Shown: piece by piece, positions 58,400 to 61,542 of the stretch
Layout of the letters: each line of letters begins with the position of its first letter
How positions within the stretch are numbered: the first letter of the stretch is position 1
From: Escherichia coli
Lineage (GTDB): Bacteria > Pseudomonadota > Gammaproteobacteria > Enterobacterales > Enterobacteriaceae
Reading direction: 5' to 3' (one strand)
DNA length: 64,000 bases
NCBI RefSeq assembly: GCF_003018255.1
Contig: NZ_CP027440.1
Translations under genes and position numbers: made by a program
The notes under the pieces: model-generated
Databases searched by the model: none
The model's input: the letters and a program-made list of their open reading frames with translations, nothing else
Told to the model about the DNA's origin: nothing

Positions 58400-60049
58400 A
58401 TGAAAAACATCAATCCAACGCAGACCGCTGCCTGGCAGGCACTACAGAAACACTTCGATGAAATGAAAGACGTTACGATCGCCGATCTTTTTGCTAAAGA
58501 CGGCGATCGTTTTTCTAAGTTCTCCGCAACCTTCGACGATCAGATGCTGGTGGATTACTCCAAAAACCGCATCACTGAAGAGACGCTGGCGAAATTACAA
58601 GATCTGGCGAAAGAGTGCGATCTGGCGGGCGCGATTAAGTCGATGTTCTCTGGCGAGAAGATCAACCGCACTGAAAACCGCGCCGTGCTGCACGTAGCGC
58701 TGCGTAACCGTAGCAATACCCCGATTTTGGTTGATGGCAAAGACGTAATGCCGGAAGTCAACGCGGTGCTGGAGAAGATGAAAACCTTCTCGGAAGCGAT
58801 TATCTCCGGTGAGTGGAAGGGTTATACCGGCAAAGCAATCACTGACGTAGTGAACATCGGGATCGGCGGTTCTGACCTCGGCCCGTACATGGTGACCGAA
58901 GCACTGCGTCCGTACAAAAATCACCTGAACATGCACTTTGTTTCTAACGTCGATGGGACTCACATCGCGGAAGTGCTGAAAAAAGTAAACCCGGAAACCA
59001 CGCTGTTCCTGGTAGCATCTAAAACCTTCACCACTCAGGAAACCATGACCAACGCCCATAGTGCGCGTGACTGGTTCCTGAAAGCGGCTGGTGATGAAAA
59101 ACACGTTGCGAAACACTTTGCGGCGCTTTCCACCAATGCCAAAGCCGTTGGCGAGTTTGGTATTGATACTGCCAACATGTTCGAGTTCTGGGACTGGGTT
59201 GGCGGCCGTTACTCTTTGTGGTCAGCAATTGGCCTGTCGATTGTTCTCTCCATCGGCTTTGATAATTTTGTTGAACTGCTTTCTGGCGCACACGCGATGG
59301 ACAAGCATTTCTCCACCACGCCTGCCGAGAAAAACCTGCCTGTCTTGCTGGCGCTGATTGGCATCTGGTACAACAATTTCTTTGGCGCGGAAACTGAAGC
59401 GATTCTGCCGTATGACCAGTATATGCACCGTTTCGCGGCGTACTTCCAGCAGGGCAATATGGAGTCCAACGGTAAGTACGTTGACCGTAACGGTAACGTC
59501 GTGGATTACCAGACTGGCCCGATTATCTGGGGTGAACCCGGCACTAACGGTCAGCACGCGTTCTACCAGCTGATCCACCAGGGAACCAAAATGGTACCGT
59601 GCGATTTCATCGCCCCGGCTATCACCCATAACCCGCTCTCTGATCATCACCAGAAACTGCTGTCTAACTTCTTTGCTCAGACCGAAGCGCTGGCGTTTGG
59701 TAAATCCCGCGAAGTGGTTGAGCAGGAATATCGTGATCAGGGTAAAGATCCGGCAACGCTTGACTACGTGGTGCCGTTCAAAGTGTTCGAAGGTAACCGC
59801 CCGACCAACTCTATCCTGCTGCGCGAAATCACTCCGTTCAGCCTGGGTGCGTTGATTGCGCTGTATGAGCACAAAATCTTTACTCAGGGCGTGATCCTGA
59901 ACATCTTCACCTTCGACCAGTGGGGCGTGGAGCTGGGTAAACAACTGGCGAACCGTATTCTGCCAGAGCTGAAAGATGATAAAGAAATCAGCAGCCACGA
60001 TAGCTCGACCAATGGTCTGATTAACCGCTATAAAGCGTGGCGCGGTTAA
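58400..60049 (+). CDS. pgi: Glucose-6-phosphate isomerase
   Basis: 549-aa product from [19 protein letters not shown]. Confidence 0.97.
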
Positions 60050-60062
60050 TCATTGTCGATAT

Positions 60063-60140
60063 GTAGGCCGGATAAGGCGTTCACGCCGCATCCGGCAACC
60101 GATGCCTGATGCGACGCGGTCGCGTCTTATCAGGCCTACA
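60063..60140. repeat. REP/BIME element downstream of pgi
   Basis: gtaggccggataaggcgttcacgccgcatccggcaa...gcctgatgcgacgc...gcgtcttatcaggcctaca. Confidence 0.6.
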
Positions 60141-60206
60141 GGTCGATGCCGATATGTACATCGTATTCGGCAATTAATACATAGTACGATTGATTAAATA
60201 GCCTTA

Positions 60207-60240
60207 AAAACAATGCCGACTATAAGTCGGCATTGTTTTA
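60207..60240. terminator. Hairpin terminator (A-run / 14-bp stem / T-run; potentially bidirectional)
   Basis: aaaacaatgccgac-tataa-gtcggcattgtttt. Confidence 0.6.
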
Positions 60241-60546
60241 TCAGATAAATCCTCTTGTCTGTCATTTAACGAAAATCATACCGTGAGGTTAATCCTAAAA
60301 TAGATTTTTAATCGTGATTGATTTCGGAAAATACGCAGAGTAATTACTTTTTATTTTATTTTAACTTCATGATTTTTAATCTTATTTATATATAAGTCAA
60401 AGCTTATATTTGATATTCATTCCAATTGTCCTAAAACTCCATCACTAATTCCCTGCGCCGTAATTCGCATGCTTTAGTTGTGTATACTCGATCCCGCCCG
60501 AAATGTTTTGGGTAAATCTCCATTCATTCAATGAAGGGAAATTGTT

Positions 60547-60789
60547 ATGAAAAAAGTTCTGTATGGCATTTTTGCCATATCTGCGCTTGCGGCGACTTCT
60601 GCGTGGGCTGCACCTGTACAGGTGGGCGAAGCGGCAGGATCGGCAGCAACGTCGGTTTCGGCGGGTAGTTCCTCCGCGACCAGCGTCAGCACCGTAAGCT
60701 CGGCGGTGGGTGTCGCGCTCGCGGCAACCGGTGGCGGTGATGGTTCTAATACCGGGACCACCACAACCACGACCACCAGTACCCAGTAA
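60547..60789 (+). CDS. yjbE: Small secreted Ser/Thr/Ala-rich protein YjbE
   Basis: 80-aa ORF with signal peptide and low-complexity tail ending [12 protein letters not shown]; first gene of yjbEFGH. Confidence 0.85.
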
Positions 60790-60903
60790 TAAAGTATGTA
60801 TCCCCAAAATAATTCGAGTCATCGCATCTGAAGCTTGAAGTATGAAGGGGATTAACCATAACCACACTCCGGTGTGGTTATTCTGCCCCTCTGGAGAAGA
60901 GTC

Positions 60904-61542
60904 GTGAAGCGACCTGCACTCATTCTTATCTGCCTGCTATTACAGGCCTGTTCAGCCACGACTAAAGAGCTGGGCAATTCACTATGGGACAGTCTGTTCG
61001 GTACGCCAGGCGTACAGCTGACGGACGATGATATTCAAAATATGCCCTACGCCAGCCAGTACATGCAGCTTAATGGCGGGCCGCAGTTATTTGTGGTGCT
61101 GGCCTTCGCTGAAGACGGACAACAAAAATGGGTCACTCAGGATCAGGCCACCCTTGTCACACAACATGGTCGTCTGGTGAAGACTTTGCTTGGCGGCGAC
61201 AACCTGATTGAAGTGAATAACCTTGCCGCCGACCCGCTGATTAAACCCGCACAAATCATTGATGGTGCAACCTGGACGCGCACGATGGGCTGGACCGAGT
61301 ACCAGCAGGTACGCTACGCCACCGCGCGCTCAGTCTTCAAATGGAATGGCACCGATACCGTCAAAGTCGGCAGCGATGAAACCCCGGTTCGCGTGCTGGA
61401 CGAAGAAGTCTTCACTGACCAGGCGCGCTGGCATAACCGCTATTGGATCGACAGCGAAGGGCAAATTCGCCAGTCGGAACAGTATCTCGGCGCGGATTAC
61501 TTCCCGGTGAAAACCACCCTCATCAAGGCGGCAAAACAATGA
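60904..61542 (+). CDS. yjbF: Lipoprotein YjbF
   Basis: GTG start giving MKRPALILICLLLQAC (lipobox LQAC); 212 aa. Confidence 0.85.
   Translation: MKRPALILICLLLQACSATTKELGNSLWDSLFGTPGVQLTDDDIQNMPYASQYMQLNGGPQLFVVLAFAEDGQQKWVTQDQATLVTQHGRLVKTLLGGDNLIEVNNLAADPLIKPAQIIDGATWTRTMGWTEYQQVRYATARSVFKWNGTDTVKVGSDETPVRVLDEEVFTDQARWHNRYWIDSEGQIRQSEQYLGADYFPVKTTLIKAAKQ

What the first reader, a model, noticed from the sequence alone, without database searches (positions are those of the whole stretch)
60790..60903. Hairpin between yjbE and yjbF may act as an intra-operon attenuator
accacac-tccg-gtgtggt (60861-60879), followed by the T-rich ttattctg, sits in the 114-bp gap between the small secreted yjbE product and yjbF. 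It could terminate part of the transcription and set yjbE stoichiometry above yjbFGH, as is common when a small structural or secreted component precedes machinery genes.
Basis: inference. Interest (0 to 1): 0.25.

Follow-up and report, generated by a model that had tools for sequence, protein, structure and literature searches.

The report
Conserved terminator-like hairpin between yjbE and yjbF
The hairpin between the first two genes of the E. coli yjbEFGH polysaccharide operon is real and is the most conserved sequence at the locus; it most likely acts as a leaky transcription stop that lets cells make more of the small YjbE protein than of the export machinery, though this has not been measured.

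Summary
A perfect 10-bp stem with a UCCG loop sits at 60858-60881, in the 114-nt gap between yjbE and yjbF (-14.8 kcal/mol, z = -5.6).

A 24-nt block, TAACCACAC-TNCG-GTGTGGTTATT, is identical in 76 of 76 Enterobacteriaceae species apart from the N of a UNCG tetraloop. In the same loci the longest invariant run in yjbF coding DNA is 5 nt. Pantoea and Rahnella keep the same stem, with free loops and a strong U tract (UUAUUUUU). More distant YjbF/GfcB-family operons (Dickeya, Buttiauxella and others) carry unrelated canonical terminators at the same junction.

The attenuator reading therefore has strong comparative support. It is unproven in E. coli, which has the weakest U tract of its clade (UUAUUCUG; the terminator scan did not flag it), and no 3'-end data could be reached.

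The rest of the gap is a truncated ERIC repeat (about 60796-60853) that is polymorphic among E. coli strains.

This is a new member of a known kind. The frozen stem sequence is unexplained. Interest is modest.

The parts
60547..60789 (+). yjbE coding sequence. It encodes an 80-aa protein with a signal peptide, rich in Ala/Ser/Gly/Thr, ending [10 protein letters not shown]. It is the first gene of yjbEFGH.
   Evidence: ORF list; RefSeq annotation of the same locus as 'exopolysaccharide production protein YjbE'.
60796..60853 (+). Truncated (short-form) ERIC repeat that folds into its own imperfect hairpin. It is an Escherichia-specific insertion between the yjbE stop codon and the conserved hairpin. 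Its boundaries are approximate.
   Evidence: It partly matches the ERIC-containing part of Rfam isrH (E = 8e-5, below the gathering score). It is absent from most other genera, whose gap is about 63 nt. In E. coli it is absent in EC-1639, short in most strains and full length (about 127 nt) in AR_0372. The full-length copy is a dispersed repeat with a median of 10 places per E. coli genome. A Citrobacter (L028) has a full copy at the same site. Its core resembles the ERIC-PCR primer sequences (my own knowledge).
60858..60881 (+). The hairpin. 5' arm AUAACCACAC (60858-60867), UCCG tetraloop closed by C-G (60868-60871), 3' arm GUGUGGUUAU (60872-60881).
   Evidence: Fold of -14.8 kcal/mol, z = -5.6. 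The same structure appears in the fold of the whole gap. Conservation.
60859..60882 (+). A 24-nt block, TAACCACAC-TNCG-GTGTGGTTATT, with 23 positions invariant across Enterobacteriaceae. Only loop position 2 varies, and it takes all four bases.
   Evidence: 46 distinct short-type gaps aligned. The block is present in 76 of 76 colinear loci, while yjbF codon positions 1/2/3 are invariant at fractions of only 0.365/0.485/0.06 and the longest invariant coding run is 5 nt. Loop counts are TTCG 65, TCCG 3, TACG 2, TGCG 2.
60878..60885 (+). U-rich tail UUAUUCUG. Its first four bases also form the base of the stem. It is a degenerate U tract.
   Evidence: Sequence. Other Enterobacteriaceae mostly have UUAUUUUG (31) or UUAUUUCG (22). 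Pantoea/Rahnella-type loci have UUAUUUUU in 37 of 41.
60893..60906 (+). yjbF ribosome-binding site GGAG (60893-60896) and GTG start codon (60904-60906), 22 nt after the stem.
   Evidence: Sequence; RefSeq yjbF start. GGAGAAG plus GTG is conserved in the alignment.
60904..61542 (+). yjbF, encoding a YjbF-family lipoprotein (PF11102) of 212 aa. yjbG overlaps its end.

Best explanation
The hairpin is the RNA stem-loop of an intrinsic (factor-independent) terminator that sits inside the yjbEFGH operon, directly after its first gene.

Proposed mechanism. RNA polymerase starting at the Rcs-dependent yjbE promoter transcribes yjbE, the ERIC insert and then the hairpin. The C(UNCG)G-capped stem folds in the exit channel while the polymerase sits on the U-rich tract. 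A fraction of complexes release a short yjbE-only mRNA whose 3' end is protected by the same hairpin. The rest read through into yjbF, yjbG and yjbH, which have no promoter of their own and are linked to each other by overlapping stop and start codons. The result is more YjbE than YjbFGH.

In Escherichia the U tract has decayed to UUAUUCUG. Termination there is probably weak, and the hairpin's effect may come as much from 3'-end protection of processed or terminated yjbE mRNA as from termination itself.

Shown: the hairpin, its RNA-level conservation, its position, the terminator shape in relatives, and the absence of a consensus promoter.

Inferred: that termination happens, that it is partial, and that it sets protein ratios.
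For: 1. Structure. Ten perfect pairs, -14.8 kcal/mol, z = -5.6. The hairpin folds independently of the ERIC hairpin.

2. Selection acts on the sense-strand RNA. In 72 Enterobacteriaceae loci the loop is always U-N-C-G with N = U, C, A or G, closed by C-G. The reverse strand would read CGNA, which is not a special loop.

3. Strength of selection. 23 of 24 positions are invariant in 76 of 76 species, against a longest invariant run of 5 nt in yjbF coding DNA. ERIC and REP-like repeats have inserted on either side of the hairpin but never within it.

4. Terminator shape in relatives.
- Pantoea (L083) and Rahnella (L089) keep the identical stem with other loops.
- 37 of 41 such loci have the tail UUAUUUUU.
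- L086 keeps the outer UAACC/GGUUA and swaps the inner five pairs compensatorily.
- Dickeya (L216), Buttiauxella (L214), L213 and L212 have unrelated stems with U tracts at the same junction.

5. The tool's terminator scan flags a + strand site in the gap in all six distant loci scanned, usually as the top hit. Rough d scores are +20 to +52 there.

6. Of 80 metagenomic contigs carrying the exact stem, 75 lie next to a YjbF-family gene, so the element is specific to this junction.

7. There is no sigma-70-like promoter on the + strand between 59800 and 64000. [quoted passage not shown] All four genes are co-induced (PMC3599342).

8. The yjbE-yjbF junction is the only long gap in the operon. The downstream genes overlap, and the same holds in the gfc operon (PMC8592465).
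Against: - No 3' end, coverage step or in vitro termination has been seen. The Term-seq and other 3'-end supplements I could search do not list the locus, and several are not held as text.
- The window's tail is poor and the scan did not flag it. The rough d score is -10.9, and -20 to +1 for other Enterobacteriaceae.
- Equal fold-induction of yjbE and yjbF shows substantial read-through. It does not exclude a constant attenuation factor.
- A plain terminator does not need a fixed stem sequence, yet this stem is frozen across three families of Enterobacterales, so something more constrains it.
- Serratia sp. DD3 (L085) has a hairpin but no U tract.
Confidence: 0.6

Rival explanations
1. The hairpin is an RNA stability or processing element with little or no termination in E. 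coli. It would act as a 3' barrier to exonucleases after endonucleolytic cleavage downstream, protecting yjbE mRNA as REP sequences do between malE and malF. Alternatively, after cleavage in the AU-rich UUAAYY just upstream, it would act as a 5'-terminal stem-loop stabilising yjbFGH mRNA.
For: - It is a very stable C(UNCG)G-capped stem.
- Within Enterobacteriaceae the loop is always UNCG, while the U tract has shortened relative to Pantoea and Rahnella. That pattern fits a shift from termination towards a stability role.
- The E. coli tail is sub-threshold.
- A conserved AU-rich UUAA lies 3 nt upstream of the stem.
Against: - The U-rich tail is still conserved on the 3' side only: UUAUU is invariant, and 65 of 72 loci have at least 5 U of 8.
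- Every distant relative has a canonical terminator, not just a hairpin, at this junction.
- Stabilisation and termination are not mutually exclusive.
Confidence: 0.2
2. The frozen 10-bp arms are a sequence-specific recognition site. One possibility is a DNA palindrome (TAACCACAC-N4-GTGTGGTTA) bound by a dimeric protein acting as a roadblock or internal regulator. The other is an RNA helix recognised by a factor that makes termination conditional (regulated antitermination).
For: - The arms are invariant from Escherichia to Pantoea and Rahnella, where YjbF is only 38-46% identical (representative search), while the 4-nt centre takes more than 20 sequences.
- Invariant half-sites with a free spacer of fixed length is the classic operator pattern.
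- Ordinary terminators drift by compensatory change, as the more distant family members here have done.
Against: - In Enterobacteriaceae three of the four centre positions are fixed as U.CG, which is asymmetric and is explained by RNA, not by a symmetric DNA site.
- The conserved tail is one-sided.
- The exact palindrome is single-copy in E. coli and almost confined to this junction in metagenomes, so it does not mark a regulon.
- No regulator gene is a conserved neighbour: pgi in E. coli, EAL/GerE genes in Rahnella, wzc-like genes elsewhere.
- Perfect A-form helices offer little for sequence-specific protein reading (general knowledge).
Confidence: 0.1
3. The element is a translation-sensing attenuator. 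yjbE's C-terminal poly-Thr codon run would act like the regulatory codons of a leader peptide. The 3' arm (GUGUGGUU) can pair either with the 5' arm or with the Thr-codon tract (AACCACG), so ribosome position on the Thr codons would decide whether the terminator forms.
For: - The 5' arm AACCACAC resembles Thr codons (ACC ACA C).
- The 3' arm pairs with the Thr-codon tract at about -9.6 kcal/mol in essentially every ortholog.
- In loci without insertions the stop codon lies a constant 14-19 nt before the stem.
Against: - The alternative helix is weaker than the hairpin (-9.6 against -14.8) and lies upstream, so the local tetraloop hairpin should win during co-transcriptional folding.
- I ran no shuffled control for the duplex energies, so they may reflect composition alone.
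- The Thr-codon third positions vary between species (contexts), so no specific partner is conserved.
- L086 changed the inner stem to GUUGC/GCAAC, which cannot pair with Thr codons.
- In E. coli an ERIC insert of 51-127 nt separates the stop codon from the hairpin.
- A ribosome at the stop codon would not reach the stem (inference from known ribosome footprints).
Confidence: 0.05

Closest known systems
Intra-operon intrinsic terminators (attenuators) that set gene ratios, such as the partial terminators between rplL and rpoB and between rpsU and dnaG in E. coli (my own knowledge)
   Same: A stem-loop with a U-rich tail lies between co-transcribed genes, co-directional with them. The downstream genes depend on read-through. 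The upstream product is expected in excess.
   Different: Termination has not been measured here. The E. coli U tract is degenerate. The stem sequence is frozen across three bacterial families, which is not a known property of those attenuators.
Major-subunit-first operons with a hairpin or terminator after the abundant small product, such as papA in the pap pilus operon and other chaperone-usher fimbrial operons (my own knowledge)
   Same: A small, abundant, exported first product is followed by a stable hairpin and then by export or assembly machinery genes.
   Different: The role and abundance of YjbE are unknown. The pap system also involves RNase E processing, which was not examined here.
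rph-pyrE intercistronic attenuator (my own knowledge)
   Same: A terminator hairpin lies in the gap just after the stop codon of a full-length upstream gene. In loci without insertions the spacing here is a constant 14-19 nt.
   Different: pyrE attenuation depends on ribosome-polymerase coupling and UTP. Nothing here points to a metabolite signal, and in E. coli the ERIC insert breaks the spacing.
REP/BIME intercistronic stabilisers (malE-malF)
   Same: A stable intercistronic stem-loop could protect upstream mRNA from 3' exonucleases.
   Different: REP is a multi-copy repeat family. This hairpin is single-copy and has a U-rich tail.
ERIC (enterobacterial repetitive intergenic consensus) elements
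   Same: The 60796-60853 segment is a short-form ERIC. The full form is present at the same site in some E. coli strains and in one Citrobacter, and it is multi-copy in the genome.
   Different: The two fold independently.

Membership tests
Intrinsic (Rho-independent) terminator | Stable stem-loop with a short loop, on the transcribed strand, co-directional with the gene | tested here: met
   10 bp (4 G-C pairs), tetraloop, -14.8 kcal/mol, + strand. The UNCG pattern shows selection on the sense RNA.
Intrinsic (Rho-independent) terminator | U-rich tract of about 7-9 nt immediately 3' of the stem | tested here: inconclusive
   In the window the tail is UUAUUCUG (5 U of 8) if the stem is read as CCACAC/GUGUGG, and UCUGCCCC after the full stem. 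The scan did not flag it and the rough d score is -10.9. The feature is met in relatives: UUAUUUUG in 31 of 72 Enterobacteriaceae, UUAUUUUU in 37 of 41 Pantoea/Rahnella-type loci, and flagged by the scan in 6 of 6 distant loci.
Intrinsic (Rho-independent) terminator | RNA 3' ends at the U tract in vivo, or termination in vitro | not testable with these tools
   No usable 3'-end data for this locus were found in the held supplements.
Intra-operon attenuator (partial terminator) | Lies between genes of one transcription unit | tested here: met
   It lies between yjbE and yjbF. All four genes are co-induced (PMC3599342). yjbEFGH was reported as an operon by Ferrieres et al. 2007, which I know only as cited; I did not read the paper.
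Intra-operon attenuator (partial terminator) | Downstream genes have no promoter of their own and depend on read-through | tested here: inconclusive
   No consensus sigma-70 site on the + strand. Only 22 nt separate the stem from the start codon. An IS1 insertion in the gap has a phenotype. Non-consensus promoters cannot be excluded.
Intra-operon attenuator (partial terminator) | Step-down in transcript level across the element | not testable with these tools
   No coverage data were available. Fold-changes alone do not measure a constant step.
UNCG tetraloop hairpin | Loop U-N-C-G closed by a C-G pair | tested here: met
   C(UCCG)G in the window. UUCG, UCCG, UACG or UGCG in 72 of 72 Enterobacteriaceae loci.
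REP/BIME repeat | Member of a multi-copy palindromic repeat family | tested here: not met
   One place per genome in 5420 E. coli genomes, even at E <= 10.
ERIC repeat (for 60796-60853 only) | Dispersed multi-copy intergenic imperfect palindrome of about 127 bp, with shorter internally deleted forms | tested here: met
   The full-length allele at this site is multi-copy (median 10 places per genome). The short form aligns to both of its ends. There is a partial Rfam isrH match.
Leader-peptide attenuator (thr, his or trp type) | Conserved alternative (antiterminator) pairing controlled by the ribosome's position on regulatory codons | tested here: not met
   The only alternative partner is the Thr-codon tract, at -9.6 against -14.8 kcal/mol. 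It is not conserved in detail and is lost in L086. No shuffled control was run for these duplex energies.
Any Rfam family | Covariance-model match at the hairpin | tested here: not met
   No match reaches the gathering score at 60855-60890. The only hits are sub-threshold ones with E >= 0.29, such as Ysr49 spanning 60798-60884.

The most novel reading that the evidence does not exclude
The frozen stem (AUAACCACAC/GUGUGGUUAU) is identical from Escherichia to Pantoea and Rahnella while its loop and flanks drift. It may be a specific recognition element that makes this attenuator conditional. A dedicated factor, or an alternative pairing, would tune the YjbE:YjbFGH ratio, for instance in response to envelope state. 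That would make it a new class of regulated intercistronic terminator in polysaccharide export operons.
Probability: 0.1. Interest if true: 0.7.

Novelty: new member of a known kind. Interest (0 to 1): 0.35.

Why it matters
yjbEFGH and its paralog gfcABCD are widespread but poorly understood polysaccharide and capsule operons, and the role of the small Thr-rich first product (YjbE/GfcA) is unknown.

A terminator-shaped element conserved at exactly the gene 1-gene 2 junction across the whole family says that cells are selected to make gene 1 at a different, presumably higher, level than the outer-membrane machinery. That fits the idea that YjbE/GfcA is a cargo or structural product rather than a stoichiometric machine part. 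PMC8592465 suggests GfcA might be glycosylated and exported through GfcD.

The finding also gives a concrete, easily mutated handle for testing that idea, and it flags an unusually frozen terminator stem that ordinary terminator evolution does not explain.

For annotation, it shows that the 114-nt gap consists of an ERIC repeat plus a conserved RNA hairpin. It does not contain a coding extension of yjbF.

Tried and rejected
1. Direct 3'-end evidence. I searched the supplements of Adams 2021, TERMITe 2025 and TRS 2023 for yjbE, yjbF and MG1655 coordinates and found nothing. The Adams files as held do not even contain 'pgi', so that absence says nothing. Four other papers have no supplements held as text. 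yjbEFGH is poorly expressed without Rcs induction, so absence from the remaining lists also says little.

2. Rfam. No family matches at the hairpin.

3. Chance hairpin. Rejected by the z-score and by conservation.

4. Coding explanation. An in-frame GTG at 60874 inside the hairpin would extend yjbF by 10 codons, and some database entries are 219-222 aa. However, indels of 1-4 nt between the hairpin and the start codon in other species break the frame, so this is rejected.

5. REP-type repeat. Rejected because the hairpin is single-copy.

6. Thr-codon leader-type attenuation. Considered and judged unlikely.

7. Resemblance recalled from memory of the upstream UUUAAC to a NusB/E boxA, of the arms to a DnaA box, and of the outer TAACC/GGTTA to the MqsA palindrome. 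These matches are poor or have the wrong spacing. They were not tested and were not pursued.

8. A formal covariation count across the distant hairpins was not run. Those stems are not alignable as homologs, and choosing them because they fold would make the test circular.

Full report
**What is at the coordinates**

The window carries pgi (ending at 60049), yjbE (60547-60789), yjbF (GTG start at 60904, ending at 61542), yjbG and yjbH. RefSeq annotation of the same locus in complete E. coli genomes gives the same names.

The inverted repeat is real and longer than described:
- 5' arm AUAACCACAC, 60858-60867
- loop UCCG, 60868-60871
- 3' arm GUGUGGUUAU, 60872-60881

As RNA it folds at -14.8 kcal/mol against -4.9 +/- 1.8 for shuffles, z = -5.6. 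It folds the same way within the whole gap. It occurs once in the window with 0 expected, and once per genome in 5420 of 5426 E. coli genomes.

The 'T-rich' tail is weak. It reads UUAUUCUG when counted from the G-C-rich core and UCUGCCCC after the full stem, and the consensus terminator scan did not report it.

**The rest of the gap**

The first fold shows a second hairpin at about 60800-60852. Rfam matches it, below threshold, to an internal piece of isrH.

Comparison with other genomes shows it is an inserted repeat. Most Enterobacteriaceae have a gap of only about 63 nt without it. Within E. coli the site is polymorphic: empty in EC-1639, about 52 nt in most strains, and about 127 nt in AR_0372. 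The 127-nt form is a dispersed repeat with a median of 10 places per genome, and its core resembles the ERIC-PCR primer sequences (my own knowledge). The segment is therefore a short-form ERIC element.

Several Citrobacter and Enterobacter species carry a different, REP-like insert of about 55 nt on the other side of the hairpin. Repeats have landed on both sides of the hairpin but never inside it.

**Conservation**

I collected 80 orthologous loci, one per species, using a YjbF alignment.
- In all 76 colinear loci a 24-nt block, TAACCACAC-TNCG-GTGTGGTTATT, is present with 23 positions invariant.
- In the same loci the invariant fraction of yjbF codon positions 1, 2 and 3 is 0.365, 0.485 and 0.06.
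- The longest invariant run in the coding sequence is 5 nt.

The hairpin is thus the most conserved sequence at the locus.

The single variable position is the N of a UNCG tetraloop closed by C-G, and all four bases occur there: TTCG 65, TCCG 3, TACG 2, TGCG 2. That pattern is asymmetric. It makes sense only for the sense-strand RNA, because the other strand would read CGNA. Selection therefore acts at the RNA level.

**Beyond Enterobacteriaceae**

A search of cluster representatives, followed by contig look-ups, gave distant YjbF-family loci whose taxa were identified from cluster names.

| Locus | Taxon or YjbF identity | Hairpin in the gap | Tail |
|---|---|---|---|
| L083 | Pantoea, 46% | identical 10-bp stem, loop AGUC | UUAUUUUUUG |
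| L089 | Rahnella, 38% | identical 10-bp stem, loop AUCC | UUAUUUUC |
| L086 | 36% | outer UAACC/GGUUA kept, inner five pairs replaced compensatorily (GUUGC/GCAAC) | UAUUUUUG |
| L084 | 42% | AAUAACC...GGUUAUU kept around a different core | UUUUUUG |
| L216 | Dickeya | AAGGCCAC-UUCG-GUGGCCUU, unrelated stem | UUUUCUG |
| L214 | Buttiauxella | unrelated canonical terminator | U-rich |
| L213 | 35% | unrelated canonical terminator | U-rich |
| L212 | 36% | unrelated stem | weaker, UUUAUCCC |
| L085 | Serratia sp. DD3 | hairpin present | no U tract |

A metagenome scan for the exact stem with a loop not starting with T returned 80 contigs. The pattern also matched UNCG loops on the reverse strand, so Enterobacteriaceae loci were included.
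- 75 contigs abut a YjbF-family gene, 3 are cut at contig ends and 2 are unrelated.
- Excluding the UNCG loops leaves 41 loci, which carry 17 different tetraloops.
- 37 of those 41 have the tail UUAUUUUU. Three of the other four were placed in the wrong orientation by my script.

Two lineages lack a yjbE-like gene and are uninformative (L088, L091).

The tool's terminator scan flags a + strand site inside the gene 1-gene 2 gap in all six distant loci I scanned, usually as the top hit.

The E. coli paralog gfcA-gfcB also has a hairpin in its gap (ACCCGGU...ACCGGGC, then CUUUAGAGAUUU), but it is weak.

**Interpretation**

The conserved features of the family are a stem-loop, a U-rich 3' tail on the sense strand, and a position 12-19 nt after the stop codon of the small Thr-rich first gene and 20-40 nt before the second gene. 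Stems differ freely between distant lineages. That is what an intrinsic terminator looks like.

Because the machinery genes follow immediately, any such terminator must be leaky. The supporting points are:
- the downstream genes overlap one another (noted for gfc in PMC8592465);
- there is no consensus promoter;
- all four genes are co-induced with yjbE (log2 5.74, 5.67, 4.29 and 5.23 after colicin M; PMC3599342);

**Reservations**

First, nothing measures termination. The 3'-end supplements I could open do not list the locus, and the others are not held.

Second, the U tract is graded. It is UUAUUUUU outside Enterobacteriaceae, UUAUUUUG or UUAUUUCG in most Enterobacteriaceae, and UUAUUCUG in Escherichia. 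A rough d'Aubenton-Carafa score, calculated with modern energy parameters and therefore only indicative, gives:

| Lineage | d score |
|---|---|
| Distant family members | +26 to +52 |
| Pantoea-type | +20 to +36 |
| Rahnella (L089) | -8.6 |
| Enterobacteriaceae | -20 to +1 |
| This window | -10.9 |

The shortening of the U tract coincides with fixation of the extra-stable UNCG loop. In E. coli the element is therefore at best a weak terminator. It may act largely by protecting the 3' end of yjbE mRNA. That is the main rival, and it is not exclusive of termination.

Third, the stem sequence is frozen across Enterobacteriaceae, Erwiniaceae and Yersiniaceae while the loop and flanks drift. A plain terminator does not predict this. 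I considered three explanations:
- A DNA operator. The asymmetric UNCG loop, the one-sided tail, the single-copy status and the absence of a conserved neighbouring regulator all argue against it.
- A factor that reads the RNA. This is untestable here.
- Alternative pairing of the 3' arm with yjbE's Thr-codon run, which the 5' arm resembles. That helix is weak (-9.6 kcal/mol, with no shuffled control), is not conserved in detail, and is lost in L086.

None of the three is supported, so the frozen stem remains unexplained.

**Verdict**

The element is a new member of a known kind, the intra-operon intrinsic terminator or attenuator, with one unexplained feature. Interest is modest.

Noticed in passing
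window 60796-60853; L218, L219, L028: The upstream half of the yjbE-yjbF gap is a short-form ERIC repeat. Among E. coli genomes the site is empty (EC-1639), short (most strains) or full length at about 127 nt (AR_0372; about 374 genomes match the full form at >=99%). One Citrobacter has a full copy at the same site.
   Followed up: yes
L003-L005, L008, L009, L025, L031, L034, L037, L038, L041 (gap between the hairpin and yjbF): A different, REP-like insert of about 55 nt (…GCCGGGTAAGCG…CCCGGCAATAATGCGGAG) lies downstream of the hairpin in several Citrobacter, Enterobacter and Lelliottia species. It pushes the terminator-like hairpin about 75 nt away from the yjbF start.
   Followed up: partly
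window 60202-60351, minus strand: There is an Rfam match to the enterobacterial sRNA STnc430 above the gathering score (72.8 against 47 bits, E = 2e-11). It lies in the pgi-yjbE intergenic region, antisense to the direction of yjbE.
   Followed up: no
window 60066-60136: There is an Rfam match to naRNA4 (a REP-derived nucleoid-associated RNA) above the gathering score on the + strand (79.5 against 59.5 bits), just after the pgi stop codon. No canonical terminator was flagged after pgi on the + strand.
   Followed up: no
window 60700-60789 and 60858-60881: The 3' coding region of yjbE has a Gly-codon run (GGTGGCGGTGATGGT) followed by a Thr-codon run (ACCACCACAACCACGACCACC). These are largely complementary to each other. 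The hairpin's 5' arm looks like Thr codons and its 3' arm like the Gly run. This may be a trace of how the hairpin arose, or of alternative pairings.
   Followed up: partly
window 60874-60906: An in-frame GTG inside the hairpin's 3' arm gives a 222-aa ORF, and some public YjbF entries are 219-222 aa (P0006, P0022). Frame-breaking indels in other species indicate that the extension is an annotation artefact.
   Followed up: partly
L082 4790-4895 (minus strand), E. coli K-12 gfcA-gfcB gap: The paralogous group 4 capsule operon has its own, unrelated hairpin (ACCCGGU-12 nt-ACCGGGC, then CUUUAGAGAUUU) followed by a run of seven U, between the Thr-rich gfcA and gfcB. It scores poorly as a terminator.
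   Followed up: partly
window 60787-60792: yjbE ends with two in-frame stop codons, TAA TAA.
   Followed up: no
L096, L097, L102, L108, L113, L144, L147, L170 (metagenome contigs): In one Pantoea-like group the exact hairpin precedes yjbF, but the sequence just upstream (…CGGGCAGAGCACCTTTAAAC) is not the usual Thr-codon C-terminus. This suggests that yjbE is altered or replaced there while the hairpin is retained.
   Followed up: no
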